Shown here piece after piece: positions 20,301 through 52,637 of a DNA stretch of 54,402 bases. Source of the DNA: a virus (lineage: Duplodnaviria; Caudoviricetes). Location of the stretch: the IMG/VR virus record IMGVR_UViG_3300036766_002274, positions 1 to 54,402 of that record. One strand, given 5' to 3'. The number at the start of each line of letters is the position of its first letter. Position 1 is the stretch's first letter. The notes under the pieces were generated by a model, which saw nothing but the letters and a program-made list of their open reading frames with translations, had not been told where the DNA came from and did no database searches. A program made the position numbers and the translations under genes.

Positions 20301-23300
20301 ACGCTGTCCTCGGTGAAGAACTGCAAGATGCCGTGCTGCTCAAGGAATGGGATGGTATCGGAACCAGATGCCTGCAACGCCGCATTAGTCTGGCGCACCA
20401 TCTCATTGTGCGCGGACTGGTACGCCTCGACAGCCGTGGACTGAGCAGCGCTCAGGTCGTAGCGCTCAGGGTTCTGGAGGATGTCGTAGAGCTTCCCCGG
20501 CCCAGAGCGAAGCTGCTCAGGGAGTCGCCGGTCATCAGCGAGGCCGTGGTAGCGGATGTTTTCCCAAGGGCGGTTGGCCCACTTCGCCTTGGCTTGGAAG
20601 CCGGATGTCGCGCCCAGTGCGCCAGCCCCAGCGATGATGCCAAGCTCCTTCAGCCTGTCGTCCCCGGTGAGTTCGCCGCCTACCCAGCCAGCGGCAACTG
20701 GCGTGGCACCGGCGGCAATCTGCTTGGCTGCATTCTGGAGATGGTTCTCTTTGCCCACGATTGGCGCGAGTTCATCGAGCAACTTACTCGCACGAATCGA
20801 CTGCGTACCCGCCGCCGAGCGCAAGTAGTCGGCGGACGCCATGGTGGCGGCGGCTACCTTCTTCGCCATGAAGGTGACCTTGTTCGAGCTGGGGTCGATG
20901 ATGCTGTTCACGGCATGGATGACCGGGGCGAGGCCCGGCACTTGCTGGAGCAACTGGTTCATGTAGTGCGGGTCTTCCATCGCGGACTCAGCGTGCGCGA
21001 GGTAGTCGCTGCTCTGGGCCTTAACGGCAGTCACCTGTTCCGGTGTCGCCATAGCCTCGACCTTGCGAGCGCTGACGGCAGCCATGCGCTTGTCGTTGAC
21101 CTTCTTCATGCGGTCAGCGGCTTCGGCCTTCGTGTCCTTTACAGGCTCCAGCATGGCCGAGAGCTTCTCAGCGCTCTGCTGGCTCTCTTTAAACGCATCA
21201 GCCAGCCCCGCTTCGCGGCTGGCCTGCGGCGGCTCGATACCGAACGCCTTACCTAGCTCAGCATCGCTACTGGCCGGGTCAGCGATGTACTTGCCTGTAG
21301 CGGCAACCTTGCCAGAGACGTGCTCCAGCAGGCGTGCGCCTGCGCCTGACCGGAGGCCAGAGGCAAGACCGTACTCAGCCGCCTGCTTGAGCTTGTCGCT
21401 CTGGTCGCCATCTGCCGTGGCATACCCATAGACAGCAGCGCCACCGGCCTGCAAAGCAGCCCGTGTCGCTGGGTCTTGTAGCTGCGAACCAGTGCCCTCT
21501 GTTAGCCCCGCAGCAACAGGTGTGGTGCCGCCAGTCCTTGCATCTCTTAAGCCGACTAGATAGTCATCAAACCCAGTGCTTGCACCCGGCGGAATCTCCA
21601 CAAGCGTTACCTTGCGGCCGGTGGCGTCGGTAAAGACGTTCTTCGTAATCTTGCTCGACGTAGACCCCATATGCAGGTAGGGCACCGCAGTCCCAGATGG
21701 AACATCTTGGCCGTTGCTGATAGTGCGGAGCAGCTTATCGCGCAGCTCGCGCGGCAAAGCACTGAGCAGCACTTGCCGGTGGCGCGAGGTATCTAGGAGC
21801 GCAGACACGCTGTATCCCGATACCTGTGGCTCTGGGATTAGCCCTGTGGCTGGCCCCCGCTGTCGCATCCGCGCTTCGGTGTACCTGAGGTCATCCCTTG
21901 CATTCGCAAGTGCCTCACGTAGCGCGCGAGTCTTCGGCCCCGAGTTCTGGGCATCTTCCCAGTCTATATCGAAGCCAAGCTCTTTTGCGGTGGAACTTTC
22001 AGGATAGCTGACTGCCTCTTGCAGTTTTCTAATCCTGTCTTGCAGGAACTGCCAATTCACATCTAGCTGGTCGATGCCGGAGGCTGCTTGCCCTTGGGGG
22101 ATTGATGTTCCCTCCACTCGTGGTGGCAAGTCTGGCGAACGACCAAACGCAACCTCGTCTGGGCTTACATCCCAGCCATTGTTGGTGGGTGCGTCGTGCC
22201 CCAATCCTCGTCCGGGGTTGTCAACCCCGATGCTTCCGCCCTCAGCCATTCGTTGTCCAGTGAGGTCTGGCGCTGGGTCACCCAGTCCTGTCCGTGCTCC
22301 GCCACCAACTCCTGTATCATGTGGGCTTTCTCTAGTGAGCTGCTTAGCTGCGTCCCAGTCGGTTGTGTATTTTCCGGGGTGTTCATATGGTGCAAAGGTT
22401 CCTATTCGCTCATGCAGTGTAGCGGGGTCGCCGCCTTCGTAACGCATGAAGATAATATCAGGTCGGCCATCGGCGGTGTAGTCCCAGCCAGCCGGGGCAT
22501 ACTCATCAGCGAACTTCATCGCCTCGGTTGGCTTGAAGCCGAACTTCGCGTACAGCTTTGGCAGAAAGTTGCCGTCGCCAGCGTAGGCATCGAGCGTCTT
22601 CCCGCCATTCTCAATCGCGTGCAGGAAAGCAGCCTGCCCAGCCTTGGGCGGGCCACCGTTATTGAACAAGTTCTGGATGTCACCTTCTGGCGACAGCATG
22701 TAGCCGGTCTTGCCGTCCGGTGACAGGAACGCCTTCGAGGCAGCGAACTCCTCGGCAGAGTGGGGCGAAAGGTTCCACGCACGCGAGTTCGCGGACTTTG
22801 CCGCCTCGAACACCTTCGGGTCTGTAACCGGGTGGAACTCTACGCTGGGGATGCCACGCTCTGCCGCGCCTCGCTCAGGTAGGTTCTCCACCATGCCAAG
22901 CCGTGCGCCGACTGCGCCTGTTGCGTCCTTGGCGAACCGGCCAACGCCGGTTGCCGCCGCCGCCGTCGCTGCCGCCCTGAGAGCTTCCTCATTATCGTGT
23001 CCGGTTGCGCGGGCTGCCGCATAAGTAGCAGAGCCAGCGAGTCCGGCCTGAACCACTGCGCGCCCACCGGGGACTTTTGCAGCAGCGTCACCGGCAGTGC
23101 GAAGCCCTTCGCTGAACCTCCCCACGCCAGCGCCAAGCGCTGGCTGCACAAGAGATGCAGCACCGGCAAACTTCGCCGTTTCGATGGCGGACTTTAAAGC
23201 CTCGTCGTGGCTTGCGCCTGAGACCCTCGCGCTCGTGTACGAGATGGCAACAGCAGAACCAGCATTGAGCGCAACTGTTTCAACCATCTTCGCGAACGGC

Positions 23301-24664
23301 TTGATGGCCTCACCCAGTGCAGCGCGTACAACAGGGCTGGCTGCGTCCATCCCGAGGCGCTCAGCAACCGGAAGTGTAAGTCGCATGACGCCATTGCCTA
23401 GTGCTTCTCCGGGGAGGAACAGCGCGGCAACGCCGATGCCAGTGTTGACTGCGTACCGCGCGGCCTCGCCTGCGCTCTGGAAGTGCGCAGCGTTGCCAGA
23501 CTCAGAGTCGAGCTTGTTGGCTGCGGCAGTGGCCGCGTCCCGCTGGTCATGGTTGAACCTGCCGACCGTGGCGGCTTGCAGCCGAAGCGGAATAGCAGCG
23601 GCGGCGGCGGCAGTGGACTCAACCGGCTGGGCAATGCCCTCAGCCAAACCGCCGAGCATGTTGCCAACCGCACCGGGGACTGCGCCACGCGCCATGTCAC
23701 CCAGCTTGTCCGAGAAGAACCCGCTCTGGTTCTGGCCGACAGCGGCACGCACTGCCTTCTCCTGATGGAAGAAGGCGTTCTTGTCTTCATACGTGGCATC
23801 TGCGGCTGGAGCCTGAAGGCCGCGCGCCTGCGCGATAAGCGCCTTCGTCGCTGGCGTCTGGATGGACTCGTGCCACTGCATTGGCCCCGTCGTGCCGATA
23901 CCCAGCGTCTCGTTGTCGAGGCTGGAGATACGTGGGTCAGCAGCGAACACACTGAGCGGGTCAGTGTCGAGCTTCTTCAGCACTGCGCGCCAGTCCGAGA
24001 ACTCCTGCCCACGGCCCGTGAGGTGCGCGAGTTCGCGGGCATAGCCCTGCTTCACGTCATCCGGCGTGCCACGCACTTGCGTCTTCAATAGCTGGATTGG
24101 GTCATAGCGCGCCGAAGCATCTCGCCGTACGCTGTCGGTCAAGCTCTGGCCGACAGCGTCAAAGTCCCACCCATCCTTGTTGGCCGCAACACGCATCGCC
24201 GCATTCACCGGTCGCAACAGCCGGTTCGAGCCCCCCGTCTTGAGGCCCTCGGCGCTCTGTGAGTAGCGCAGTACGCCAGCCTGACCACGGCTCTTTATTG
24301 AGGAGTTGCCAAAGTTTTGCCCCTCGGCATCATCGATGTACTTCTTGCGCTCATCAGCGCTGCGCTGCTCGTCAACAAGAACGCGGCTGCGTTGTGTGGC
24401 GGCGCGGTCATCTTCACGGCGAGTGAAGTCAGCACGCTGGTTGTCAGCCTGAGCCTGAGCGCGCTGGCGCTGGTCTTCCTCTTCACGCCTGCGCCGCTCT
24501 TCTTCATCGAGCTGGCGCTGGCGAGCCGCCGCCTCGTACTGGTCGAGACTGTTCCGTGTCCAGTCTTGGCTGCTATCTGCGGGCGCGGCGAAGAGCCCCG
24601 AGCCGGGGTTCACACGGTTGATGCGCGAGTCAACAATGTCACCGAGGTCGTCAAGCACTGCCAT
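17366..24664 (-). CDS. Giant internal virion/ejection protein with embedded GNAT-like domain
   Basis: Likely ATG at 24664 (TAATG coupling) within the 2457-aa ORF; Ala/Gly-rich helical blocks, hydrophobic stretches, enzymatic-looking insert. Confidence 0.75.
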   Translation of the reverse strand: MAVLDDLGDIVDSRINRVNPGSGLFAAPADSSQDWTRNSLDQYEAAARQRQLDEEERRRREEEDQRQRAQAQADNQRADFTRREDDRAATQRSRVLVDEQRSADERKKYIDDAEGQNFGNSSIKSRGQAGVLRYSQSAEGLKTGGSNRLLRPVNAAMRVAANKDGWDFDAVGQSLTDSVRRDASARYDPIQLLKTQVRGTPDDVKQGYARELAHLTGRGQEFSDWRAVLKKLDTDPLSVFAADPRISSLDNETLGIGTTGPMQWHESIQTPATKALIAQARGLQAPAADATYEDKNAFFHQEKAVRAAVGQNQSGFFSDKLGDMARGAVPGAVGNMLGGLAEGIAQPVESTAAAAAAIPLRLQAATVGRFNHDQRDAATAAANKLDSESGNAAHFQSAGEAARYAVNTGIGVAALFLPGEALGNGVMRLTLPVAERLGMDAASPVVRAALGEAIKPFAKMVETVALNAGSAVAISYTSARVSGASHDEALKSAIETAKFAGAASLVQPALGAGVGRFSEGLRTAGDAAAKVPGGRAVVQAGLAGSATYAAARATGHDNEEALRAAATAAAATGVGRFAKDATGAVGARLGMVENLPERGAAERGIPSVEFHPVTDPKVFEAAKSANSRAWNLSPHSAEEFAASKAFLSPDGKTGYMLSPEGDIQNLFNNGGPPKAGQAAFLHAIENGGKTLDAYAGDGNFLPKLYAKFGFKPTEAMKFADEYAPAGWDYTADGRPDIIFMRYEGGDPATLHERIGTFAPYEHPGKYTTDWDAAKQLTRESPHDTGVGGGARTGLGDPAPDLTGQRMAEGGSIGVDNPGRGLGHDAPTNNGWDVSPDEVAFGRSPDLPPRVEGTSIPQGQAASGIDQLDVNWQFLQDRIRKLQEAVSYPESSTAKELGFDIDWEDAQNSGPKTRALREALANARDDLRYTEARMRQRGPATGLIPEPQVSGYSVSALLDTSRHRQVLLSALPRELRDKLLRTISNGQDVPSGTAVPYLHMGSTSSKITKNVFTDATGRKVTLVEIPPGASTGFDDYLVGLRDARTGGTTPVAAGLTEGTGSQLQDPATRAALQAGGAAVYGYATADGDQSDKLKQAAEYGLASGLRSGAGARLLEHVSGKVAATGKYIADPASSDAELGKAFGIEPPQASREAGLADAFKESQQSAEKLSAMLEPVKDTKAEAADRMKKVNDKRMAAVSARKVEAMATPEQVTAVKAQSSDYLAHAESAMEDPHYMNQLLQQVPGLAPVIHAVNSIIDPSSNKVTFMAKKVAAATMASADYLRSAAGTQSIRASKLLDELAPIVGKENHLQNAAKQIAAGATPVAAGWVGGELTGDDRLKELGIIAGAGALGATSGFQAKAKWANRPWENIRYHGLADDRRLPEQLRSGPGKLYDILQNPERYDLSAAQSTAVEAYQSAHNEMVRQTNAALQASGSDTIPFLEQHGILQFFTEDSVRRVFGEDAAKAFRMQTPGFDRLRSPQMLRDLGPTYESALRAQPGLDIIKDPMALLRLEVKRHDQIRANAMLVQNLKESGGAWKIPSDAERQALSKQDRLDLKVKQKGMEQRGWRQLPGIDDHLFHPEMVKAVDSLLIPTRGNETGPLAVADGITNILRQAMFTGDLSAWTMQGAMLAINDPMGAVRNFIPLVGASFGGKRYFDHWVSKNQDLWNAYTKAGGIGGLEHEGIEKEGKLSLSNMPGVKQIEQHGFEAYLPIHRALQWDLQRQTENFIKGFGPAKGKFPVGGRLAAEFLKNGPLLAGAGIAASGVDIPGVDDQYEAGFALALGLATNVGTRAAFKAEARYAGEKLSKAENIKSSVQAAKQINRTSGTLNRQLYGISAQQSQWERTIGARSPALLRNTFILAKKASTDFGPEGAMARYYLVKTAVLMGAGMAAMQYLATGSMPSMNPMDEDSILNPKSQNFLKAQGGATGTLSASNPVIGLVKALMRTDSPDGVRKWRMQDWVPMVGLADWYSSRTPDVIGAATRPLATEIGNGLQSHLSDAGIGAPGNSTGFNNGLFQPPLPLTAKAAFNTGVIQNHTAIGKFIKPLTDNVGLKEDPNYSNPRERAAGLFSNFVGLNHNPETLGREMTRIKAEEVSKQFPGLQDRANVNGNKDGVVDYNDLNSGEQTGIRGALDKNTRYAELKKTLADNATGQDSPVQSYFNRLDGINKGYTTKMQDLDTRYKSGKTSAFDAKAEYQFLAGQRRQEITDAQTDLGKLAAQRKGTDETVLDYLGRYMKPEDKVVNDWYALFDQATGKDGKLDFNKLDALQTAFKAKTAPEYAKYLDERLASFDKPKDTQFGRDYDAAKAATKPYYDAADTAFEYVKGLGVFDGFNTYSEFETAVRDAAQQRGIPVQNMLDSLSSDPAMKAFQKLLSGQRTLLRLDNPAMDSSLQKFYNKAPVKGTMAYYENKYNKLQMASEPLFDYSSSKTR

Positions 24665-26652
24665 TAGGCAGCAGCCGAGCGCTGTGCGCCCTTCAGGAAC
24701 TCGGTCGGCTTCTGGAGCCAGTCCACATAGTCGGCCCACGGGATGCCGTTGTTGCCTTCAACAAAGCCACGATACAGCTCAGTCTCACCCTTGGTCTGGT
24801 TCCTCAGCGTCTGGAGTGATGCCGCCACACCGCCGCCTTTTTGCTGAAGCCCGCTGCCCATGTTGAGCGTCGGCGCGATGTCGCCGGTGGCGTTGGCTGC
24901 GAGCGACGGAGGGATAGGCGCACCATAGTCAATAAGGTTCTGGAGCCGCGTCGGCATCTCACCAGAGATGTGCTGATTCGTGGAGCTGGGCATGTAGTCA
25001 CTGCCCATGCCGTTTGCCTCGTAGTCACCCTGAGTGCCGAGCGCAAAGCGGTGGTACGCCTGCGGGAACTGCATGAGCGGGCGGGGCTGCATGACCTGAC
25101 CCTGAGCGTTACCCTGCCACTTCCATGGCTCAGCACGGAGCACGCTGGGGTCAACGCGATGGCCCCAGTCGGCCATCCGCTGCATCTGGTAGCGGCTGTC
25201 GCCCTGTGCCCAGTTGCGGCCAGCCGCTTGGTCGAGACGCTGGTTGTACATGTACGGCTGGTTTAAAGGCCGCGCCTCTTGGTTCACGGGGCGTTGCGGC
25301 ATCTGGAACATCGGCTGTGCGCCACCCCCTATGGGGGTGTTGTCAGGGTGGGGCGTGATAGCCAGCGGGGCATTGGTCGGATTAAAGATACCCTCAGGCT
25401 TCGCCCCGCCAGCACTCGGGTCGGGAGCGTTGGCGTCGCCAGCCATGATGTTCGTGGCGGTCGTGAAGCCGCCCGCAGCCATGCGGTTCTGGGTCGGGTC
25501 ACTGAGCGCTGCGTTGGTTGGCGTCCAGCCTTTGCTTGCCGGGACTTGCGGCGGAAGCGCGTTCCAGCTATTGCCGCCACCAGACATGTCGAAGTTCCGC
25601 ATGTCATCACCGATGGGAATCTGTGCCTGCTGCGGCACGGGAGGCGGAGGCGCGATGCTGCTCTGGCCGGGGTTGAATGTGGCGACAGAAGGCGGTGCGA
25701 ACGCCGGTGCCTGAGCCGGAGCCGAGAGCGGAGCCTGCGCGGGAGCCGGGCTGCCCGAGGACTGAGTGCCGAATACCGGCGCTGCCGTGGTAGGGTCATA
25801 CGCGTGCAAAACGCTGGTTGCCGAGAGCGGCGTCATCGAAGCGGGCGTGCCGCCCTTTGCCATCGTATCCCAGTCAGGCGTGATGCCGCGCTGCATGAAG
25901 TACAAAGAGAAAAGGTCACGCGGTGACCTTGCCTGTTCAGCGATGAACTTGTTGTTGTCGAGTGCGAGCTGCCCCATGCCGACAGCGCGGCTTGTCTCCG
26001 CGCTGAACTGCCCGGTCTGGTTAGACTGCTCACCAAGCAGCCGCTTGGTTGCGTCGTCCATGCGGGCGATGACAGCCTGCTCTTGGTTCCAGCGCTCAGT
26101 GACCCGGTTGCGCTCAGCGTCGTTGGCCGCGCCTGCCATGCCCACCTTGTAGTTGTTGTCCGAAGCGTAGCGTGACGCAGCAGCAGCCTCCGCAGATGCC
26201 TGCGCCTGAGCCTGCCGGTCAGCCGACTGAGAAGCGAGCTGGTCACGCCGGTAGGCGTCGTTGGCGGTATCACGCGTGGCGTTGTACGCGTCAGTGTGTG
26301 TGTCCCGCCCAGCTTGGTAGTCGAAATTGCGCTGGTCTTGTGCAATCTTCGCAGCATCGTTCGTAGTGTTACGCGCGTCATTCGCCGCATTCCTGTCCAT
26401 GTTGTACTGGTCAGTAGGCGAGACATCGAAGAAGTGGTCTGGGCCAGCATTGGAAGGCTGGCGTACACCGGGAGCAAGCCCAGCCGCGATAAGAGCCGCT
26501 TGGTGTGCTTGGTCAAGCGTTAGACCCGGATACTGAAGCATCAACATCCGGTCGGCTGTGGTCATATCGCCTGACGCAGTTGTAGGCATAACATTCGGCA
26601 CATACTCCGTGCCGTTCCAGTGCGTATTCGGGGGCTGGTCGTTGTAGGCCAT
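24664..26652 (-). CDS. Putative ejection/pilot protein (662 aa)
   Basis: Q/A/P-rich, low complexity, QRNFDYQAGRD-type segments. Confidence 0.6.
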   Translation of the reverse strand: MAYNDQPPNTHWNGTEYVPNVMPTTASGDMTTADRMLMLQYPGLTLDQAHQAALIAAGLAPGVRQPSNAGPDHFFDVSPTDQYNMDRNAANDARNTTNDAAKIAQDQRNFDYQAGRDTHTDAYNATRDTANDAYRRDQLASQSADRQAQAQASAEAAAASRYASDNNYKVGMAGAANDAERNRVTERWNQEQAVIARMDDATKRLLGEQSNQTGQFSAETSRAVGMGQLALDNNKFIAEQARSPRDLFSLYFMQRGITPDWDTMAKGGTPASMTPLSATSVLHAYDPTTAAPVFGTQSSGSPAPAQAPLSAPAQAPAFAPPSVATFNPGQSSIAPPPPVPQQAQIPIGDDMRNFDMSGGGNSWNALPPQVPASKGWTPTNAALSDPTQNRMAAGGFTTATNIMAGDANAPDPSAGGAKPEGIFNPTNAPLAITPHPDNTPIGGGAQPMFQMPQRPVNQEARPLNQPYMYNQRLDQAAGRNWAQGDSRYQMQRMADWGHRVDPSVLRAEPWKWQGNAQGQVMQPRPLMQFPQAYHRFALGTQGDYEANGMGSDYMPSSTNQHISGEMPTRLQNLIDYGAPIPPSLAANATGDIAPTLNMGSGLQQKGGGVAASLQTLRNQTKGETELYRGFVEGNNGIPWADYVDWLQKPTEFLKGAQRSAAA

Positions 26653-33596: not shown

Positions 33597-34127
33597 TTAA
33601 ACCGGCAGGAGCGGGATGTAGTCCTTCAGCTCCCCGATGAAGGCAGCCAGCTCGGACTGGCTCTCGATACACAGGCTGGCCGCGAGGCTCCTGCCGTTCG
33701 CGTCGAATCCCTCGATGCTGACGCTGTCTTGGGTGAGGGCATCACCGAAGACGAACTCCCAGCTTGAGCCGTTCGGCACATCAATCACTGTGCGCCGTTC
33801 GCCACTGGAATAGTTGACCGTCTCGGACGAGACAGCCTTGGGCTGTTCGGCGAAGTCGCAGTCGCCGTCGCCGCAGTCCGGGGAGGATGAGGGGTCTGCG
33901 CAGGAATCCTCTGCCGTGTACCACTCCTCACTGAAGTCGTCGGGGGTGTTCTTGTTGCTCGGAACGTAGACATCCTCGGCGGTCTCGCCGAAGTCTTTGA
34001 AGTCGGCCGCGATACTGATGCCGAGCTTCTTCTCCTGCTTCAAGACGAACTTGTCGAAGCGCCGGGCGAGGATGTTGGCGCGCTCTTTGTAGGACGGGAG
34101 CGCATTGGGGTTGTTGGGCTTACTCAT
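33597..34127 (-). CDS. Hypothetical acidic protein
   Basis: ATG overlaps upstream stop region; coding-like composition. Confidence 0.6.
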   Translation of the reverse strand: MSKPNNPNALPSYKERANILARRFDKFVLKQEKKLGISIAADFKDFGETAEDVYVPSNKNTPDDFSEEWYTAEDSCADPSSSPDCGDGDCDFAEQPKAVSSETVNYSSGERRTVIDVPNGSSWEFVFGDALTQDSVSIEGFDANGRSLAASLCIESQSELAAFIGELKDYIPLLPV

Positions 34128-34599
34128 CGTTGAACTCTTCCTCTTCTTCTGTTTCGTCTGGCTCTTGGTTGGCAGAGAACTGCCATGGGTCAGTTGTATC
34201 GAACGCCGGGTTGTCTTCTGCCGCAGTGTCGCCAGCGAAAGGCTCTTCCCCGGCAGCGTCGAGGTCAGCATCGACCTCGGCCTGCATCTCGGCGATGGCC
34301 CGGTCGAACACCGCCGTGAGGTCGCTGAGTACAGCCTCGAAATGCTGGACAGGAATGGCGACGAAGCCTACCTGCCGGTCATCCACGTACTGCGCCATGA
34401 TGACCTGACCCTTGTGGAAGCCAGCGAGGATGCCTGAGTAGTCCTCGTCAGGGCTGAAAGCGGGCTCATTGGCTCGCAACTCCTTGAGGCCCACGTTGCT
34501 CGTCTTGCGCCACGCGCAAGCGATGCAGACATTGCCAACACTGCTGGATGCCGCAGTTCCGTTGACGAGCTGCCTGCGGGGTGGTGGTCGCTTGGACAT
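34120..34599 (-). CDS. Hypothetical protein (159 aa)
   Basis: GAGGAG RBS; acidic tail. Confidence 0.65.
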   Translation of the reverse strand: MSKRPPPRRQLVNGTAASSSVGNVCIACAWRKTSNVGLKELRANEPAFSPDEDYSGILAGFHKGQVIMAQYVDDRQVGFVAIPVQHFEAVLSDLTAVFDRAIAEMQAEVDADLDAAGEEPFAGDTAAEDNPAFDTTDPWQFSANQEPDETEEEEEFNDE

Positions 34600-34839
34600 C
34601 GGCGTCTCCTCACACGGCCTATGCCGTGATGGACGAAGCGGCTGGGGTAGTTAGAAGAACTTGGACTTGGGAATGCCGGTTCCCCAGCCACCTCGCGTGA
34701 TGTGTTTGCACCTCACACTCTTAGAGTAACCGTCTCATGCAACGCAGTCTATGTCCTTCGCGCGCACCGGGCGGCGCGGCGCAAAGACGAAGCGCCCAGT
34801 GGTGTGTGGGGTTTTTGTGCCCGCTGGACACGAAGTGTG

Positions 34840-35480
34840 GAAATAGTGTATACTAGTTAAACAGAAGCTTTAAGCCTTGCCGAACTGCCAAGTGAGGCAA
34901 GGCTTGGCATAGATAGAACAGCACTAAAGGCCAAAGCCGACAAGGCTTTGGCCTTGTCGGCTTTAAACAGCCAAGCTCCAGTCTTACCCTAAAAGCCAAA
35001 GCCAGCTCTTCGAGCCTTGTTTTGGCTTTGTCTTTTAGGCTAAGACTTACGCTTGGCTTTTAGCTTGGCTTTCTTGGTCGGGGAAGACGATGCCACACCC
35101 GCAGGTGGGGCATCGTGTAAGCCCCCGTGCCAAATACTCGTTTCACTCGTATGGTCGTCCATGGCGGAACAGAGTGGAGCCATGGCTTGCTTGAAGCTAA
35201 GCGAAGAAGCGAGATGTCCCCCTACGGGGCCATCTCGCGGTATGAAAGAGCTTAGCTGGCACAGCCAGCGTCCCCCCAGAAGTGGTCACCACGTGTCGTC
35301 TTTCCGCCGCAGGCATATTAGATAAGTATCTATAACATACCTGTTGTGTGTAGCCTTTAAAGCTCAGTTTGTATGTAATATAAACATCCACTTAGTTCAC
35401 ATAGGTTCATTAAGCGGGATTTAAAAATCGGAGGGGGTTCAAGGCAAACCCCATGACCCCTCAGATTCAAAGTGTTAAAT
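34840..35480. repeat. AT-rich inverted-repeat cluster, candidate origin or packaging region
   Basis: IRs at 34872-34905, 34933-34964 and 34980-35047; many AAGCC/GGCTT units; lies between divergent arms. Confidence 0.6.
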
Positions 35481-35929
35481 AGACGACGTGTTTTTACCCT
35501 TCAAGCCGGGTGGGGTAGTACTACCGTGCCTAGGCCGACCGCGACCGGCGATACCCCCACCCCCACCCCTGCCCAGCATCGCCTGCACGTCTGCGCCGTG
35601 CTCGCGGCTCGTCCTCGCTTGCTGGCATGCAAGCGCACTGCGCCGCCACGGGCGGACGACTAATCAGCACCGGCCTGACTACGTTCTCACTGAGAAGCAC
35701 GGCAACGGCACGGCACGGTTCCCTATACCCCTCCGGGGTATCACATCGGCGAGGTACACCACGCCACAAACCGCCGTGCTCACGGCCCGGCAGCGTGAGA
35801 CTTGCCAGCGCACGCCGAGACTGGCACGTCGAGGTTGTCACATGTAAATGTCCCAACCGCATACGCATGTGTTGTATGACACAGCACAGACTGTACCCCT
35901 GTATGTCGCATATCTGGCCCAAAATGTGC

Positions 35930-35958
35930 TTGACAGTCTCGCTCGGCAGGTTCAATCT
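35930..35958 (+). promoter_or_regulatory. Candidate sigma70 promoter
   Basis: TTGACA at 35930; weak -10 (TTCAAT or CAATCT). Confidence 0.4.
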
Positions 35959-35961
35959 GAG

Positions 35962-36540
35962 CACATCGAAGCCGAGACGCCCACCGCAAGGTGGTGCTCC
36001 ACTTCAGACATCGCCAGAGTTCACCCGCCAGCCGGAAACGAAAGAGCCGCCTATCAAGTGACACACCACCGGCAACCCAGCCGCACCGGAGAGGCCCAGA
36101 CAAGGCCCGGTGTGTAGAAGGGGAGCCGCAACGGTCAAGCCGCAACAATGCCGCCCCGATGTGCCTAGCACGCCTAACTCGACTAGATGGTATCAGTCGA
36201 GTGCTCCCCTTCTACCGGCGGTCGCGTAACCTGAGCGATTAGCAGAACAGGGAGCATGGACGCCAATCGGTACAATCCCGATGTGCGCTCCGCCGAACGT
36301 CAACGGTTAGGTTGACGTGCATCAGCGAGCGTAGTCGCTGACTAACCCGTGCCATTAACGCAGTATGGGCACATCTCTTACCCCGGAGCCTAGCAAGCCC
36401 CGGCCATCTACCGGAGCGCTCGATTCACAGTAGCGCAACCGGCAAACACATCTCTTAGGTGACTGGCGAGCATGGCAAGTAATCAAGCATGCGCCAGTCA
36501 CGTTGCAGTCACGTCGCACGGGTTGGCACCCGTGACATGA
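35962..36540 (+). ncRNA. Candidate large structured ncRNA (~580 nt, ends approximate)
   Basis: More than 10 helices, including 13-bp 36114-36126/36203-36215 and 10-bp 36459-36468/36492-36501; no credible ORF. Confidence 0.6.
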
Positions 36541-36613
36541 ATTAGGAGCTTCGAAACGTGAAGACCTTTATTGAGGATTCCATCTACGAAATCGACGCCA
36601 GCGACTACGCTTC

Positions 36614-36757
36614 GTGAATATCGACCGCAGCGAAGTATCGCGCCTACTGGCGAAAGCCATCGCATACAAGGAGTGCGGCAATCGCGCGAAAGCTGACGAC
36701 TACGCTCGCCAGCTTGTCTACGCCTTGCAGTGCGCCAATATCCTCAACAACTCTTAG
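36614..36757 (+). CDS. Small phage protein (47 aa, IDRSEVSRLLAKAIAYKECG)
   Basis: Translated by hand; GTGA overlap with upstream mini-ORF. Confidence 0.55.
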   Translation: MNIDRSEVSRLLAKAIAYKECGNRAKADDYARQLVYALQCANILNNS

Positions 36758-36790
36758 TGCATCCCGCCGCAGGCGGGTGGAGATTCTGTC

Positions 36791-36895
36791 ATGAGTGACC
36801 CGATTCTTGGCATCACCGAACGATGGGACACAGACGCTCTTATCGAGTTGTCACACGCCATCCTCACGCTCGTCGTCGTGAGGGATGCATCGTGA
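36791..36895 (+). CDS. 34-aa ORF duplicating the N-terminus of the 37475 gene
   Basis: GGAG RBS; 62/75 nt identical to 37475-37549. Confidence 0.5.
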   Translation: MSDPILGITERWDTDALIELSHAILTLVVVRDAS

Positions 36896-36980
36896 AGTGT
36901 GAGCGTTGCGGCCGTCCCGTCGTCGTCCTCACGGATATTGACCTTGCATGGTGCAAGGTCTGCCAGCATGGAAGCACATC

Positions 36981-37205
36981 ATGACATGCGAAGCGTGCGT
37001 GCAGCCGTCTAATCTTGTCGAGTTCACAGATGAGCAAACCTACGTGACCCATCTGTTCGATGGGAGCCAGACGTACAATACCAGCCCATTACGCGCCATT
37101 TGTGGCGCGTCCTTCCGTGATGCCGAGTATCTCAATCTCGGCATCGTCGATAGCGGCGGATACTGTTTCGCGTGTCTCTCCGCAGAAGAGGAAGCTATCT
37201 CATGA
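36981..37205 (+). CDS. Small Cys-rich protein
   Basis: CEAC..H..ICG..CFAC. Confidence 0.5.
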   Translation: MTCEACVQPSNLVEFTDEQTYVTHLFDGSQTYNTSPLRAICGASFRDAEYLNLGIVDSGGYCFACLSAEEEAIS

Positions 37206-37474
37206 CTCGTATTCACACGCTTTTGTTGGGAGCACTGGCGAAAGCCATCGCCAATGGCGATACCACCCGTGTGCGGTTCATCGTCGCCGAACTCTGCGAG
37301 GTTGCACGTCATGCATGACGTGCTTCTCCGCTTCGCTATCAAGAACGGCCTTAGTCCATGCAAACGGTGCAGCGTCGTTTACGGCGACGCTGACGATTGC
37401 GGCCCGTTCACTTGCGGTAACTGTCTGCGTGGCAGCAAGGCCCGCGACCGTGCCAATTTCACGGGAGGAACACT

Positions 37475-38197
37475 GTGAGCGACCCGATTCTAGGCATCAC
37501 CGAACGATGGGACACGGACGCGTTGATTGAGATATCCCATACCATCCTCGCCCCTGCCCAGTGCCCCGCACTGCCCAGCCCGTTGCGTATCCGCACCGGT
37601 GCTGTACCCGGCACAAAGGGCACGAGCCAGAAGGTGCTGGGCTACTACGTTGCGCCTGACAAGGCAGAGGACAAGGTGCCCAGCTTCTACATCTCGCCGC
37701 TTGTCGGCGACACGGTAGGCGCGCTCACTATCATGACGTGGCTTGCTACGTTTGCCGCCTACCCCGACGACGATTGGAAGAAACGCAGCAACCGGAGTCA
37801 CCTTGCCGAACGTCTCGGTTTTGCCGCTCCCTATAGCACGCCGGTGGCAGGCTCGAACTTGCGCGTGCTCCTCGATGAGGTTGCGCTCTCGCTCGTGAAA
37901 GAGCGCCCACACTCGTGCATCGACGTGTCTAAGAATCCCATTATCCGCACACAGGCCACGAGCCTGTTGACCGGCGAGTGCCAGCTTTGCCATGGCAAGC
38001 ACAGGCCCACGCTCGCCACACTGGCATCGGGCTGGCCCGAGTGCAGCGGCAACGGTGGACACCGCCGCGTGCTCATTAACTGCTGGTCTGGCACACGCAC
38101 GGCTGGCCTCACGCCAGTCTCGCCGCTTGGCTTGAACATTCCTTGCCGCCCGTACGCCACCGGTTCCGGTGGCGTGCCCATCTTTGAGCCCATCTAA
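37475..38197 (+). CDS. SprT-like protein with degenerate HExxH and C-terminal Zn ribbon
   Basis: FYISP..D....L....(TWLAT in place of HELVH)..LG..T.AG..PH..Q.T.LL..EC..C..P.C pattern; GGAGGA RBS. Confidence 0.5.
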   Translation: MSDPILGITERWDTDALIEISHTILAPAQCPALPSPLRIRTGAVPGTKGTSQKVLGYYVAPDKAEDKVPSFYISPLVGDTVGALTIMTWLATFAAYPDDDWKKRSNRSHLAERLGFAAPYSTPVAGSNLRVLLDEVALSLVKERPHSCIDVSKNPIIRTQATSLLTGECQLCHGKHRPTLATLASGWPECSGNGGHRRVLINCWSGTRTAGLTPVSPLGLNIPCRPYATGSGGVPIFEPI

Positions 38198-38219
38198 CGA
38201 GCTAGGACAGGAGAGAGAC

Positions 38220-39365
38220 ATGCACCCGACCATTAACCCCGACATCTTAGACAAGAGCGAACTTATCGAGCACCTTGTGCGCTTGACCGGCAAGTCTGGC
38301 GCATTCTTTGAAGCGGACAGCGTGCGCACACTGCGCGTGATGCTCGTCACCGCCATCGAAGCAAACCCTGACGGCGGAGTGGCGCGCAACCCTACCGCAG
38401 TAGGCGGTGGTGCGACGCTCACGCCCGAGGACATCGAGCGCCTCATCGAACAGGCTGCGACACGCGCTGAGCAGCGCGTTGTTCAGCGTATCCGGCAGGC
38501 CAGCATCAGCACCACCGAAGGTGCTGCACCAGCCAGCGATGGCGAGCCCGCCATCTCCGTCTCGTTCGGCGCTGACTCGCAGGGTATTCACGTCCCTGCC
38601 ATTCTCGCGGAATATCGCAACCCGTTTAAAGCGTTCTGCTCACGCATCGAAGCCGAGTCACGCGACACTGGCGTGCCCATCCACATCGGGCTCGTCGGCC
38701 CAACCGGCTCAGGCAAGACGACGTTCGCGGTGCAGTTCGCAGCCCAGACCAACCGACCCTGCTACATCCTGAACGTAGGCGCAGTGAGTGAGGCAGAGCA
38801 GCTTCTCTACACGTGGGAAGCGAAGGACGGCACGACATACCAGACACCGAGCGAACTCTCGCGTGCCATCCAAGTGGAGAACGCCGTCATCGTCTTGGAT
38901 GAACTCACACGTGGCGCCAACGCCAAGGTCACGAACGGCATCCTCGACATGCTCGACCACCGCGCGGTGCTTGGCAACGTGCCTGTCGCACCGGGCGTCG
39001 TGTTCTTCGCGACACTCAACGAGGGCGTCGGCTACACCGGCACCGACCTCATCGATGAGGCACTAGAGAACAGGCTCGCCTATTTCCTGCACATCCCGTA
39101 CTCCACCGAAGAAGAAGAGATTCTCATCGAGAAGTACGGCTGTGACCCGGTGCTCGCCAAGCACCTCGTCCTCCTCGCCCGCAACCTGCGCGGCGAGTAC
39201 GACCGCATCTCACTCCGCACACTGGGCGCGGCAGTGCGTCAAGTGAAGTACGGTGCGAGCATCGGCGAAGCGCTGTTCTGCACCTTCGCTCGCATCGTAC
39301 CGCCTGACGTGCTGGTATCGGCGGCAGCGTCAACCATTCCCAACATCACGTTCCCGAACTACTAA
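38220..39365 (+). CDS. MoxR/CbbQ/CobS-like AAA+ ATPase
   Basis: GPTGSGKT, IVLDELTR, FATLN.G.GY.GT..DEAL.NR, ISLR. Confidence 0.9.
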   Translation: MHPTINPDILDKSELIEHLVRLTGKSGAFFEADSVRTLRVMLVTAIEANPDGGVARNPTAVGGGATLTPEDIERLIEQAATRAEQRVVQRIRQASISTTEGAAPASDGEPAISVSFGADSQGIHVPAILAEYRNPFKAFCSRIEAESRDTGVPIHIGLVGPTGSGKTTFAVQFAAQTNRPCYILNVGAVSEAEQLLYTWEAKDGTTYQTPSELSRAIQVENAVIVLDELTRGANAKVTNGILDMLDHRAVLGNVPVAPGVVFFATLNEGVGYTGTDLIDEALENRLAYFLHIPYSTEEEEILIEKYGCDPVLAKHLVLLARNLRGEYDRISLRTLGAAVRQVKYGASIGEALFCTFARIVPPDVLVSAAASTIPNITFPNY

Positions 39366-47648: not shown

Positions 47649-47722
47649 GCCGGTGTCGTACAACGGTAGTACGCCTGTTTTGTAAACAGGAAGTGTAGGT
47701 TCAACTCCTGCCACCGGCTCCA
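47649..47722 (+). tRNA. tRNA-Thr(TGT)
   Basis: Acceptor GCCGGTG/CACCGGC; anticodon arm CCTGT-TTTGTAA-ACAGG; T loop TTCAACT; ends TCCA. Confidence 0.92.
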
Positions 47723-48871: not shown

Positions 48872-49039
48872 CCGCCACTTCTAAGTGGGTGCAGTTCATC
48901 ATTGAGTACCCCGTCAATGCTGCCGATGCCGCCATCCTAGAGGTACTTGAAATTGCACGCAGCACGGGCTATGCCCGCGTTGTCAGTGTCGCTGCTCCGG
49001 TGGCATCGCCGGATGACGACAAAGAATGGACAATCGACG

Positions 49040-49969
49040 ATGACTAGTTGGCACAGTTACCCAAGCATCTTCAACTTCGGCCACAAGGCCGTACGCGACA
49101 TCTTCTCCAAGCCGGTCATCGTAGAGGAGAAGGTAGACGGCAGTCAGTTCAGCTTCGGCCTCATCAATGGCGAGCTTCGGCTCAAGTCCAAGAAGCAGGA
49201 GTTCACCGTCGATACGGCACCGACCCTGTTCAGGCTCGCTGCCCAGACCGTCAAGAAGCTCAGTGATGACCTCGTCCCCGAGTACACGTACCGTGGCGAA
49301 TACCTGTCCAAGCCGCAGCACAACACGCTGGCCTACGACCGTGTGCCGGGGCAGCACATCATCATCTTCGACATCAACGATGCCGAGGAGTCCTACCTCA
49401 CTGTCAACGAGAAGCGGTTCGAGGCACTCCGCCTCGGGCTTGAGTGCGTGCCGATGTTCCTCGCTGGCGACAGCGTCACCTACCAAGACATCCTTGGTTT
49501 CCTCGAAACCACGAGTGTTCTCGGTGGTCAGAAAGTAGAAGGCGTGGTCGTCAAGTCCCTCTCTCTCTATGGAGAGGACAAGAAGCTCCTTATCGCCAAG
49601 CACGTCAGTGAGGCGTTTAAAGAGATTCACGGCGGCGAGTGGCGCAAGAACAACCCTGCGAAAAGTGACATCATCGCCGGGCTTATCGCTCGCTACGGTG
49701 GCCCTGCTCGCTACGCCAAGGCAGTCCAGCACCTTCGTGACGAAGGCGTCCTCGAAGACAGCCCGCGTGACATCGGCAAGCTCATCCCAGAACTCAAGCA
49801 AGACTGGGCGAAGGAGTGCGAAGACGACGTGAAGGCCATTCTCTGGACGCACTTCCGAGACCAGATTGAACGCGGCGTTCTTGCCGGGTTCCCGACGTGG
49901 TACAAGTCCGAGCTGCTCAAGCAGCAGTTCGGTGAGCCAGAACTTGAAGAGGAGCTGATAGCAGCATGA
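49040..49969 (+). CDS. ATP-dependent RNA ligase (Rnl2-like)
   Basis: YPSI, EEKVDGS (motif I), RGE, IFDI, EGVVVK, IAKHVSE.FKE. Confidence 0.85.
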   Translation: MTSWHSYPSIFNFGHKAVRDIFSKPVIVEEKVDGSQFSFGLINGELRLKSKKQEFTVDTAPTLFRLAAQTVKKLSDDLVPEYTYRGEYLSKPQHNTLAYDRVPGQHIIIFDINDAEESYLTVNEKRFEALRLGLECVPMFLAGDSVTYQDILGFLETTSVLGGQKVEGVVVKSLSLYGEDKKLLIAKHVSEAFKEIHGGEWRKNNPAKSDIIAGLIARYGGPARYAKAVQHLRDEGVLEDSPRDIGKLIPELKQDWAKECEDDVKAILWTHFRDQIERGVLAGFPTWYKSELLKQQFGEPELEEELIAA

Positions 49970-50208
49970 CCGCACCATACGCAGTCCGTGACCTCCCGCT
50001 CCGTAAGCAGCGGGTCAACGACAGCCCGCAGGCATACGTGGCACCGACAGGTGTCGTCCTCTGCGACCAGTCCAACAAGGTCTGCCATCTCACACAGGCC
50101 GAGGCCACTATGGTCATCACGAAGCTGGGGCGACCCAGTCTTCGCGCCTACCAACACACCGCCCCGAAGGGGTGTGGCTACTGGCATATCGGGCACGTTA
50201 TCTCATGA
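49966..50208 (+). CDS. Hypothetical protein (80 aa)
   Basis: K....EA..RAY..GCGYWHIG motif. Confidence 0.55.
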   Translation: MTAPYAVRDLPLRKQRVNDSPQAYVAPTGVVLCDQSNKVCHLTQAEATMVITKLGRPSLRAYQHTAPKGCGYWHIGHVIS

Positions 50209-50363
50209 GCACAACACTCACGAGCTTCTGTGTCGGTATGTCGCTGGGCATGTCGCTGATTGGCCTTGGTGCCATCCTCACATCGCCAATCACCGGCATC
50301 ATCTGCATGCTTGGTGGCGTCTGCTGGGGCATCATCGCCGCCGACCTCGGAGGTGGAAAGTGA
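50205..50363 (+). CDS. Small two-TM membrane protein
   Basis: Hydrophobic; ATGA overlap. Confidence 0.5.
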   Translation: MSTTLTSFCVGMSLGMSLIGLGAILTSPITGIICMLGGVCWGIIAADLGGGK

Positions 50364-51220
50364 CCGCTCTCGACATCACCTACACGCGTGGTTTGCCGGG
50401 CTCCGGCAAGACCACGTGGGCACGGGAGTTCCTCAAGAACAACCCCGGTTACAAGCGCGTCAACAATGACGAGCTGCGCCTGCTGCTCGATGGCGAACAG
50501 TTCAACCCGAAGAACGAGGGCTTTGTTCGCATTGCCCGCAAGGCACTTATCGCCGTTGCCCTCGGTGACCGCAAGAACGTCCTCGTGGACAACTGCAACC
50601 TGTCCCCGAAGGCCGTCGCTGAGCTGGAGAACATCGCCGCTGCGCACGGTGCCACCACCACCGTCAAGGACTTCACTGACGTGCCGTTCAGTGAGTGCAT
50701 CAGGCGTGATGCCCTCCGGCAGTGCCCCGTTGGCCGCAAGGTCATCAAGCGCATGCGCGATGACTTCCTCCGTGACCAGAAGGTCGTGTATGAGCACGAC
50801 AACAGCCTGCCCAAGTGCATCCTCGTAGATATGGATGGCACGCTCGCTATCCATGGTACGCGTGGAGTCTACGACTTCGAGCACGCTGGCGAAGACGCTT
50901 TAAACGAAGCGGTCGCTTGGCAGGTAGCACTCTGCCACGAAGCTGGCATGAGCGTCATCATCGTTACCGCTCGCGAGGCGAAGTACCGAGAAGTCACACG
51001 CGACTGGCTCAATAAGCACGAGGTGCCCTACAACGCCATCCACATGCGTGGCACCTTCGATGACCGCGAGGACAGTATTGTCAAGCGCGAGCTGTACGAG
51101 AACCACATCGATGGCAAGTACAACGTGCAGGCTGTCTTCGATGACCGCAACCGCGTCGTCAACATGTGGCGCGACCAGCTCGGCCTGACAGTCTTCCAAG
51201 TCGCTGAAGGCGACTTCTAG
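50360..51220 (+). CDS. pseT: Polynucleotide 5'-kinase/3'-phosphatase (T4 PseT-like)
   Basis: RGLPGSGKTTWA, N.D.LR, VDNCN; HAD DMDGT, TAR, D..VK, FDDR..VV.MWR. Confidence 0.92.
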   Translation: MTALDITYTRGLPGSGKTTWAREFLKNNPGYKRVNNDELRLLLDGEQFNPKNEGFVRIARKALIAVALGDRKNVLVDNCNLSPKAVAELENIAAAHGATTTVKDFTDVPFSECIRRDALRQCPVGRKVIKRMRDDFLRDQKVVYEHDNSLPKCILVDMDGTLAIHGTRGVYDFEHAGEDALNEAVAWQVALCHEAGMSVIIVTAREAKYREVTRDWLNKHEVPYNAIHMRGTFDDREDSIVKRELYENHIDGKYNVQAVFDDRNRVVNMWRDQLGLTVFQVAEGDF

Positions 51221-51605: not shown

Positions 51606-52637
51606 GTGACAGGCTTTTTTGGGAGCATCCATACGGTGTATCTGGCTGGCCCGATGACGGGCTTCCCGGATTTCAACTACCCCAAGTTCCACGAACTCGC
51701 GGACAAGATTCGCGAGCATGGCTTCATCGTCCGTAACCCGGCCGAGAGCTTCAACGGTGACCAAGCGCAGTCACGCGCCACCTATGCGGTGCATGACGCC
51801 GAACTCGTCGCGACATGCGACGCCGTTGCCGTCATGGATGGCTGGGAGAACAGTGCTGGCTCACGCTTCGAGACGCACGAAGCCGCACTCATCGGCATCC
51901 CCGTCATCGACGCGGACATCCTCGCGCTGAGCGGTGTTGTCGTCGGTATTCCCGTTGACAAGCACGGAGGCCCGCTGCCAAGCGGTGTACCTGTGACACC
52001 GCCCGGCTGGTGGGATACCAAGCGCAACAACAAGCGTGAAGAGCGCGTCAAAAACACGCCATTCTCCATGTCGCTGGTGCCGGGAACGTCGGAGATTCTG
52101 GGCATCTCCCCGCAGGTCGGCACCACGAATGCGAACGGCACCTCGTTTAAAGCCGTCAATCTGGTTGACGAAGACGGCGACATCACGCCGCTCGTCTTCC
52201 GCGAGCGCGTCAAGTCCAAGGTACACGACTACCTCGGTGAGGTAGACGGCGGCGGGTACAAGTCCAGCATGGACAACCCGGAGAAGCTGCCGCTCTGGCT
52301 CATCCCCAACGCACTCGGGCAGGCCGCAGCACGCGCGCTCCAGCACGGTGCTGCCAAGTACGCACCGAACAACTGGCGGCGCGGCATGCCGTACAGCGAG
52401 GTCTACAGCGCACTCCAGCGCCACCTCACGGCGTGGCTCGAAGGCGAGAACTACGACGGCGAGTCCAGCCTCAACCATCTCGACCATGCGGCGGCATGCC
52501 TGTCGTTCCTCTGCGAGTACACGGCACAGCCGCACTACGCCAAGTTCGATGACCGCTTCAAGCGGAACACACCGCGCGTGCCAACCCCGCCGTCGCTGCC
52601 ATTTTCCAGCATCGGCACAGTTGAGTGTGCATCTTGA
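51606..52637 (+). CDS. DUF4406 (NDT-like) fused to DUF5664 dATP/dGTP diphosphohydrolase-like domain
   Basis: YLAGPMTG..NYP.F..NPAE..CDA..GWE.S.G..E; GA.KY..NNWR.G..S..RH..W..GE..D.ES...HL.HA. Confidence 0.82.
   Translation: MTGFFGSIHTVYLAGPMTGFPDFNYPKFHELADKIREHGFIVRNPAESFNGDQAQSRATYAVHDAELVATCDAVAVMDGWENSAGSRFETHEAALIGIPVIDADILALSGVVVGIPVDKHGGPLPSGVPVTPPGWWDTKRNNKREERVKNTPFSMSLVPGTSEILGISPQVGTTNANGTSFKAVNLVDEDGDITPLVFRERVKSKVHDYLGEVDGGGYKSSMDNPEKLPLWLIPNALGQAAARALQHGAAKYAPNNWRRGMPYSEVYSALQRHLTAWLEGENYDGESSLNHLDHAAACLSFLCEYTAQPHYAKFDDRFKRNTPRVPTPPSLPFSSIGTVECAS

What the first reader, a model, noticed from the sequence alone, without database searches (positions are those of the whole stretch)
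35962..36540. Candidate ~580-nt highly structured non-coding RNA heading the early arm
Seen: a stretch with no credible ORF, downstream of TTGACA (35930), tiled with helices. These include CCACC-GCAA-GGTGG (35981-35994); GCACCGG/CCGGTGT (36083-36113); a perfect 13-bp long-range pair GTAGAAGGGGAGC (36114-36126) / GCTCCCCTTCTAC (36203-36215) enclosing ACTCGACT/AGTCGAGT (36177-36202); GGAGC..ATCGG/CCGAT..GCTCC (36251-36291); ACGTCAAC/GTTGACGT (36297-36318); TCAGCGA/TCGCTGA (36322-36341); GTGACTGGCG/CGCCAGTCAC (36459-36501); and CACGGGT/ACCCGTG (36517-36534). The linker CACATCTCTTA occurs twice (~36370, ~36447). Known: phages carry large ornate ncRNAs (GOLLD, ROOL), but I do not recognise this as one of them. 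Inference: a new large phage RNA (scaffold, protein decoy or antitermination leader), or folded ssDNA.
Basis: partly seen in the sequence, partly recalled or inferred. Interest (0 to 1): 0.8.

Follow-up and report, generated by a model that had tools for sequence, protein, structure and literature searches.

The report
Hairpin-bearing non-coding leader in a prophage
This stretch is the right-hand quarter of a 2-kb gene-free control region between the two divergent gene arms of an uncultured temperate phage; its hairpins are real, but it is no more folded than much of the same genome and nothing shows that it is a new large structured RNA.

Summary
It folds better than shuffles: z -3.85 on the + strand, -4.60 on the - strand, -5.30 with DNA energies. 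That is not exceptional for this genome. Coding windows of 579 nt average z -1.95 (sd 1.73), and 3 of 19 reach -3.85. Perfect-hairpin density is in the top ~5% of windows.

The helices are almost purely Watson-Crick, with 2 G.U in 172 pairs, so no strand is favoured. Rfam gives nothing.

The only syntenic relative I could reach is G001 (44% DnaB and AAA identity). It keeps a 1.84-kb gap with a palindrome array, but no alignable or structurally matching counterpart of this stretch.

The strongly structured element is elsewhere in the gap, at 34800-35380 (z -10.7).

Best reading: an untranslated leader or spacer of the rightward arm that carries DNA-level inverted repeats. Transcription is untested. 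Interest is low.

The parts
34600..36557 (.). Whole gene-free gap between the leftward arm (first gene 34599->34120) and the rightward arm (first start 36558)
   Evidence: No codon periodicity; only short overlapping ORFs; the relative G001 has a 1.84-kb gap at the same junction, L091:1073-2908
34860..35240 (.). Palindrome/iteron-like array, the truly strongly structured part of the gap (outside the finding)
   Evidence: 14-, 12-, 11- and 10-bp perfect inverted repeats; 120-nt z down to -9.6; 579-nt DNA-fold z -10.74 for 34804-35382; analogous array in G001 at L091:1160-1760
35310..35480 (.). AT-rich segment where the GC skew changes sign
   Evidence: GC 0.39-0.45; cumulative GC skew peaks at 35150-35449
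35480..35800 (+). GC-rich block, C-rich on the + strand
   Evidence: GC 0.64-0.69; GC skew -0.13 to -0.18; G001 has a GC-rich block in the same relative place, L091:2290-2700
35930..35958 (+). Promoter-like site: TTGACA, 17-nt spacer, CAATCT (weak -10)
   Evidence: Read from the sequence; TTGACA position verified; not reported by the consensus scan
35981..35994 (.). Hairpin CCACC-GCAA-GGTGG
   Evidence: kept in the centroid fold
36083..36113 (.). Hairpin GCACCGG / CCGGTGT with inner GCC/GGC pairs
36114..36215 (.). 13-bp perfect long-range helix; the nested 8-bp hairpin 36177-36202 abuts its 3' arm
   Evidence: (I19); second-longest perfect inverted repeat (loop <=100) in the window
36251..36291 (.). 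Two-tier hairpin GGAGC..ATCGG / CCGAT..GCTCC
36297..36341 (.). Two adjacent hairpins: ACGTCAAC/GTTGACGT and TCAGCGA/TCGCTGA
36370..36457 (+). Direct repeat CACATCTCTTA at 36370 and 36447
   Evidence: no further exact copy in the window; with up to 2 mismatches, 7 matches against 3.19 expected
36459..36534 (.). 10-bp hairpin 36459-36501; tandem CAGTCACGT at 36495 and 36506; 7-bp hairpin 36517-36534
36545..36757 (+). AGGAG, then a 19-aa ORF (36558-36617) whose stop overlaps (GTGA) the start of a 47-aa ORF (36614-36757): the start of the rightward arm
   Evidence: Sequence; ORF list; codon periodicity resumes here

Best explanation
The stretch is the promoter-distal part of a 1.96-kb non-coding control region between the two divergent arms of an uncultured temperate podovirus-like phage. 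That region reads, left to right: a palindrome/iteron array, an AT-rich switch point, a C-rich block, then this hairpin-bearing segment.

It most likely acts as the untranslated leader of the rightward operon, transcribed left to right from a start at or upstream of about 35965. On that reading its independent Watson-Crick stem-loops are ordinary leader elements: pausing or U-less termination sites, nuclease barriers or processing sites, and a 5'-proximal GNRA-capped hairpin. They would set how much transcript reaches the first rightward genes.

Shown: non-coding status, position, reality of the hairpins, and + arm-like base skew. Inferred: transcription, its direction, and any role of the hairpins. 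It is not a member of any known structured RNA family, and there is no evidence that it folds into one large ornate RNA.
For: - Non-coding, and ends 5 nt before the AGGAG of the first rightward ORF.
- Base skews of the + arm (C>G, A>T) begin at the AT-rich segment near 35300-35450 and run through the stretch.
- A perfect TTGACA with a 17-nt spacer lies at 35930.
- Nine or so separate stem-loops with unrelated stem sequences survive in the centroid fold. This fits selection for pairing rather than for one protein's binding site.
- Folding beats shuffles on either strand, and hairpin density is 2.4 times the coding density.
- A distant relative keeps a gap of similar size and layout at the same junction, so the gap as a whole is maintained.
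Against: - No transcript evidence of any kind.
- The -10 element is weak, and the consensus scan reports no promoter there.
- No hairpin has a U-tail: 0 terminator-like sites in the stretch.
- The fold z-score is within the genome's own spread.
- The helices are Watson-Crick only, 2 G.U of 172 pairs against 7.6% in shuffles, with 0 of 40 shuffles as low. This is what DNA-level inverted repeats look like, and it gives no + strand signal.
- In G001 the segment between the GC-rich block and the first gene is only about 200 nt, and its last 579 nt fold at z -1.78. The hairpin segment is therefore not conserved.
Confidence: 0.4

Rival explanations
1. DNA-level element. The inverted repeats belong to the replication-origin zone of the gap and act in single-stranded or supercoiled DNA, as hairpins or cruciforms that serve priming or helicase loading by the phage's DnaB and PrimPol, not in RNA.
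For: - The helices are Watson-Crick only and symmetric between strands.
- The z-score is stronger with DNA energies, -5.30 against -3.85.
- The same gap holds an iteron-like palindrome array and an AT-rich segment at the GC-skew switch.
- DnaB lies 1.4 kb to the left of the gap, and a PrimPol is on the right arm.
Against: - The stretch lies 500-1100 nt from the AT-rich switch and is far less structured than the array.
- The stems are all different, so there is no iteron logic.
- Coding controls reach similar DNA-fold z-scores, 2 of 16.
- G001 has no counterpart.
Confidence: 0.22
2. No specific function. This is a tolerated non-coding spacer in which short perfect inverted repeats arise by chance and by template-switch mutation. 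The apparent tiling with helices is within what this 60% GC genome shows elsewhere.
For: - 3 of 19 coding windows fold as well relative to shuffles.
- 43 perfect inverted repeats of 9 bp or more occur across the window, most of them in genes.
- 13-mer matches of the stretch to the rest of the genome occur at chance level, E 0.75 each.
- The stretch is absent from the relative.
Against: - Phage genomes rarely keep 580 nt of idle DNA.
- A 13-bp perfect pair at 76-nt spacing is expected about 0.1 times per genome (my estimate from base composition, not a tool result), and it coincides with a 10-bp pair and four 7-8-bp pairs.
- Hairpin count is in the top 4.9% of windows.
- 0 of 100 shuffles fold as well.
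Confidence: 0.28
3. A new large structured non-coding RNA that folds as a unit (scaffold, decoy or self-assembling RNA).
For: Length of about 580 nt, phage context, many helices including a long-range 13-bp closing helix, and folding better than all 100 shuffles.
Against: - No Rfam match even at E<=10.
- No conserved counterpart in the one syntenic relative.
- The z-score lies inside the genomic background.
- Almost no G.U pairs and no strand preference.
- Mostly local hairpins joined by unstructured linkers, with weak local z-scores.
Confidence: 0.08

Closest known systems
Long untranslated leaders of phage early operons carrying stem-loops (lambda nut/boxB, HK022 put, the P4 leader that yields CI RNA; all recalled, not from a call)
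   Same: Position between a promoter region and the first early gene; several discrete stem-loops; a short direct repeat (CACATCTCTTA x2) like the repeated target sites in the P4 leader.
   Different: No match to any Rfam family. No copy complementary to the repeated 11-mer anywhere in the window, so the P4/P1-type antisense logic is not met. No antiterminator protein recognised among the ORFs scanned. Transcription unshown.
GOLLD and ROOL, large ornate RNAs often found in prophages (Weinberg et al. 2017, PMC5737381; Kretsch et al., bioRxiv 10.1101/2024.12.08.627333; for both I saw only the search listing and the start of the abstract)
   Same: Size class (~600 nt), phage or prophage setting, non-coding.
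   Different: No covariance-model match. No conserved multi-stem core. No homologues. Helices are simple local hairpins with Watson-Crick pairs only.
Iteron-type replication origins of phages and plasmids (repeat array, AT-rich unwinding element, neighbouring replication genes; general knowledge, recalled)
   Same: The gap as a whole has a repeat/palindrome array, an AT-rich segment at the skew switch, and DnaB nearby.
   Different: Those features lie at 34860-35480, outside the finding. The finding's stems are all different and are not iterons. Origin activity is untested.
Hairpin signals that work in single-stranded DNA (N4 early promoters, plasmid ssi sites and leading-strand ssDNA promoters; recalled)
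   Same: Watson-Crick-only hairpins that read equally on either strand.
   Different: No virion RNA polymerase recognised: the 2457-aa protein matches only one PHROG of unknown function. Loops are 4-23 nt rather than the 3-nt loops of N4 promoters (recalled). No shared sequence motif among the hairpins.

Membership tests
GOLLD / ROOL and all other Rfam 15 families | Match to the family covariance model at its gathering score | tested here: not met
   The whole window at gathering thresholds gives only three tRNA-model matches, 2 clear tRNAs and 1 weak one. 34400-37000 at E<=10 gives five sub-threshold chance hits, none to a bacterial or phage large RNA.
Conserved structured ncRNA (any new class) | Homologues with conserved structure and compensatory base changes | tested here: inconclusive
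   Only 1 of 9 DnaB-anchored relative loci (G001) spans the junction. No sequence similarity. Single-sequence models R1 and R2 hit only themselves in 520,796 bases. No closer relative was reachable, so covariation could not be measured.
Intrinsic (rho-independent) terminators / attenuators | GC-rich hairpin followed by a U-run | tested here: not met
   The scan of 34000-38500 found 2 terminator-like sites (35012, 37144), none in 35962-36540; shuffles gave a mean of 4.0.
P4 CI / P1-P7 c4 type RNA immunity leaders | Repeated leader sites complementary to a sequence in a small stable RNA made from the same leader | tested here: not met
   The 11-mer occurs twice on the + strand, but its reverse complement occurs 0 times in the window. 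No Rfam C4-like hit.
Sigma-70-type promoter at 35930 | -35 and -10 hexamers with 16-18 nt spacing | tested here: inconclusive
   TTGACA is perfect with a 17-nt spacer, but the -10 CAATCT matches only A2 and T6. Not reported by the scan. Host unknown.
Iteron-type replication origin | Repeat array plus AT-rich unwinding element next to replication genes | tested here: inconclusive
   Present in the gap at 34860-35480 but outside the finding. Replication function is not testable with these tools.
N4-type ssDNA hairpin promoters | Virion-packaged giant RNA polymerase plus short hairpins with a shared motif | tested here: not met
   The 2457-aa protein has no polymerase family match in PHROGs. The hairpins share no motif.

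The most novel reading that the evidence does not exclude
The ~600-nt segment is transcribed from the TTGACA site as a dedicated hairpin-studded leader RNA that gates the whole rightward arm. Two routes are conceivable: protein-independent antitermination or processing, or cis pairing of its 36325-36340 hairpin with the 13-nt complementary sites at 36599-36611 and 36697-36709 in the first two ORFs. That would be an RNA-based early switch in a phage lineage with no recognisable repressor.
Probability: 0.1. Interest if true: 0.6.

Novelty: new member of a known kind. Interest (0 to 1): 0.2.

Why it matters
If the leader reading is right, this is one more example of a hairpin-bearing untranslated region ahead of a phage early operon. 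It is useful for annotating this uncultured lineage but is not a new principle.

The check itself has wider use. In a 60% GC phage genome, a z-score near -4 against shuffles and a run of perfect 7-13-bp hairpins do not single out a structured RNA, because coding windows of the same genome reach the same values. Candidate structured RNAs from high-GC phages should be tested against genomic background, not only against shuffles.

The more distinctive object is the conserved ~2-kb gene-free junction with its palindrome array. It probably holds the origin or the main switch of this lineage.

Tried and rejected
**Searches for relatives**
- Close relatives by protein patterns: none in viral contigs or genome contigs.
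- Cultured phages: no DNA match. Protein matches were distant only: AAA <=36%, DnaB <=26%, terminase <=23%.
- Plasmids: no match to P0153.
- The nearest AAA homologue (P0004/P0153, 46%; P0153 sits on a 54,621-nt contig from NCBI/Logan) could not be fetched as DNA.
- The Walker-A-based alignment scan gave only distant loci. The metagenome scan gave 80 loci at <=40% identity that share only the AAA-VWA pair.
- DnaB-anchored loci: 9 found. L098 and L105 start inside DnaB. L097 is coding up to its contig end. L099-L103 carry a ~730-aa ORF directly upstream of DnaB, a different layout. Only G001 was usable.

**Expression and population data**
- One run listed, DNA, probably the source sample; no RNA holder listed.
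- Laying that run gave only the source contig, with no variants.

**Closed or failed calls**

**Ideas dropped**
- DGR template/variable repeat for the 74-nt duplication: the differences are not adenine-specific, and both copies are N-termini of ORFs.
- Integron attC sites: no integron integrase, and a single GTTRRRY match is at chance level.
- A phage-wide promoter motif in CACATCTCTTA: 7 matches at <=2 mismatches against 3.19 expected, and the others lie inside genes.
- Decayed or duplicated genes: tblastx of the gap against all loci gave only a marginal hit (E 0.007) to an unrelated contig, and blastn against the window gave only chance 12-13-mers.
- A shared GGCYWWWRGCC unit for the arrays of both phages: 16 of 17 occurrences in L091 fall in its array, but only 2 of 4 in the window do, so it is not claimed.

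Full report
**Setting.** The window is a complete IMG/VR provirus record of 54,402 bases from a sediment metagenome.
- An integrase fragment (1-948) and a tRNA-Ala (962-1037) lie at the left end.
- A leftward arm runs from 34599 down to about 1365. It holds a small CxxC protein, DnaB, a 166-aa protein, a terminase-like protein, endonuclease VII, a 2457-aa protein, a podophage fibre protein and a GH25 lysin.
- A rightward arm starts at 36558. It holds small ORFs, an AAA_5 ATPase, a VWA protein, PrimPol, tRNA-Thr, RNA ligase, PNKP, HNH and a MazZ-like protein.
- Between the arms lies a gene-free gap, 34600-36557. The finding is its last 579 nt.

**The observation.**
- The ORFs in the stretch are short and mutually overlapping on both strands.
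- The three codon positions have nearly equal GC from 34600 to about 36440, whereas flanking genes differ by 0.2-0.5. The stretch is non-coding.
- Its end is set by AGGAG (36545-36549) and a GTG at 36558. That GTG opens a 19-codon ORF whose TGA overlaps the GTG of the next, 47-codon ORF.

**Is it more structured than chance?** Against dinucleotide shuffles, yes:

| Fold | z | Shuffles as stable |
|---|---|---|
| + strand, RNA energies | -3.85 | 0 of 100 |
| - strand, RNA energies | -4.60 | 0 of 100 |
| + strand, DNA energies | -5.30 | 0 of 100 |

Against the phage's own sequence, only mildly:
- With RNA energies, 19 coding windows of the same length (sense strand, 15 shuffles each) gave mean z -1.95, sd 1.73, minimum -5.82. 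Three of the 19 reached -3.85.
- With DNA energies, 16 controls gave mean -1.85, sd 1.80. Two of the 16 reached the finding's -4.32 and a third reached -4.20.
- The window holds 253 perfect hairpins (stem >=7, loop 3-40). The finding holds 6, against 2.55 +/- 1.74 per 579 nt; 4.9% of sliding windows hold as many. A rough gene map gives 2.5 per 579 nt in coding DNA.
- In 120-nt windows the z-scores inside the finding lie between +0.45 and -3.99.
- The part of the gap that really stands out is 34800-35380. There, 14-, 12-, 11- and 10-bp palindromes overlap, local z reaches -9.6, and the 579-nt DNA fold has z -10.74.

**Which strand, RNA or DNA?** The data give no answer, and what they show leans to DNA-level symmetry.
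- The + strand minimum-energy fold has 2 G.U among 172 pairs (1.2%). Shuffles give 7.6 +/- 1.7%, with 0 of 40 as low.
- The - strand fold has 23 G.U of 193 pairs (11.9%) against 17.2 +/- 2.1%, again with 0 of 40 as low.
- Forbidding G.U costs the + strand fold 1.5 kcal/mol. Coding controls lose on average 11% of their energy.
- The helices are therefore true inverted repeats that read equally on either strand.
- No hairpin has a U-tail.
- The base skews of the rightward arm (C>G, A>T) begin at the AT-rich segment 35310-35480, where the cumulative GC skew peaks, and run through the finding. This fits rightward transcription or a replication switch at that point. It does not discriminate between them.

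**Known families.** Rfam 15 gives only tRNA-model matches at gathering thresholds. In 34400-37000 at E<=10 it gives five sub-threshold chance hits. The relative's gap is likewise empty.

**Relatives.** This lineage is sparsely sampled.
- No DNA match among 50,697 phage records, and only distant protein matches.
- Pattern scans with single proteins found nothing.
- A full HMMER search with the AAA protein found one clear orthologue cluster (P0004/P0153, 46%), whose contig I could not reach.
- Alignment-based scans found G001, a 50,686-base complete virus record (L091/L104). Its identities to the window are AAA 44%, DnaB 43-44%, terminase 64% and the CxxC protein 30%.
- Eight further DnaB-anchored loci either stop short of the junction or have a different layout.

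**What G001 shows.** It keeps a gene-free gap of 1.84 kb at the same junction (L091:1073-2908) with the same order of parts:
- a palindrome/repeat array beside the CxxC gene (L091:1160-1760, local z to -9.65);
- a lower-GC segment;
- a GC-rich block (L091:2290-2700);
- about 200 nt before the first rightward gene.

It has nothing that corresponds to the finding:
- blastn between the gaps gives a best E of 0.078, and the genome search gives E 0.238;
- nhmmer finds nothing, and tblastx finds only a marginal hit to an unrelated contig;
- single-sequence covariance models of 36079-36220 and 36247-36345 hit only themselves in 520,796 bases of relatives' loci;
- the last 579 nt of G001's gap fold at z -1.78, with 5 of 100 shuffles as good.

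At 44% protein identity a fast-evolving leader would not be alignable. This argues against a conserved ornate RNA, but not against a lineage-specific leader.

**What it most likely is.** I read the gap as the control and origin region of the phage, and the finding as the untranslated leader or spacer of the rightward arm (confidence 0.4).
- A perfect TTGACA with a 17-nt spacer but a weak -10 (CAATCT) would start transcription near 35965. That would put a GCAA-capped hairpin about 17 nt from the 5' end and the last hairpin 11 nt before the AGGAG.
- A start further left, in the AT-rich segment, is equally possible.
- The stems have unrelated sequences. This favours pairing as the selected property over binding of a single protein to double-stranded sites.

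**Novelty and interest.** This is an ordinary kind of element in an unstudied phage lineage: a new member of a known kind, of low interest (0.2). The boldest reading not excluded is an RNA-based gate for the early arm (probability about 0.1). It draws on the 13-nt complementarity between the 36325-36340 hairpin and two sites in the first two ORFs (I20/I21; each is at chance level genome-wide).

**Papers.** For GOLLD and ROOL I saw only the search listing and the starts of the abstracts of bioRxiv 10.1101/2024.12.08.627333 and PMC5737381. Statements about lambda nut, HK022 put, P4 CI RNA, P1 c4, N4 promoters and plasmid ssDNA signals are recalled and rest on no call.

Noticed in passing
window 34860-35240 (and L091:1160-1760): Dense array of overlapping perfect palindromes and short repeats built from AAGCC/GGCTT words. 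It is the most structured DNA in the window (579-nt DNA-fold z -10.74) and lies beside a conserved small CxxC protein. The relative G001 has an analogous array of GGCCTATAGGCC-type units beside the homologous gene. Probable origin or operator array.
   Followed up: partly
window 35310-35480: AT-rich segment (GC 0.39-0.45) where the cumulative GC skew peaks and the sign changes. Candidate unwinding element or site of divergent promoters (a TTTAAA-17-TATAAA reading at 35356-35384 is by eye only).
   Followed up: partly
window 36325-36340 vs 36599-36611 and 36697-36709: The loop and 3' arm of one leader hairpin are 13/13 complementary to two sites in the first two rightward ORFs, both encoding D-Y-A. 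Each match is at chance level genome-wide (E 0.75), but both lie within 400 nt downstream.
   Followed up: partly
window 36495-36514 and 36459-36536: Tandem CAGTCACGT (period 11) gives alternative pairing partners for GTGACTG (36459) and CGTGAC (36531). The last two hairpins before the ribosome-binding site could therefore form mutually exclusive structures.
   Followed up: no
window 36558-36757: A 19-codon ORF with a strong AGGAG 8 nt upstream ends in a GTGA overlap with the start of a 47-codon ORF. This looks like translational coupling at the head of the rightward arm.
   Followed up: no
window 36792-36865 and 37476-37549: 74-nt direct duplication (84% identity) encoding the same N-terminus (MSDPILGITERWDTDALIE) on a 34-aa ORF and on the 240-aa protein, which is conserved in G001.
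   Followed up: partly
window 51606-52637, 48947-51220, 47649-47722: A DUF4406 + dATP/dGTP diphosphohydrolase (MazZ-like) fusion hints at modified DNA bases. An RNA ligase plus polynucleotide kinase-phosphatase pair sits next to a tRNA-Thr and looks like a tRNA-repair module.
   Followed up: no
L097:3562-6066 and L101:12460-15006: The terminase large-subunit genes of two relatives are split by inserts of about 1 kb (intein, intron or homing-endonuclease insertion). The window's terminase gene is uninterrupted.
   Followed up: no
window 17366-24739: A 2457-aa ORF on the structural arm whose only family match is to a PHROG of unknown function over residues 645-767. Probably an internal virion or ejection protein of a podovirus-like particle.
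   Followed up: no
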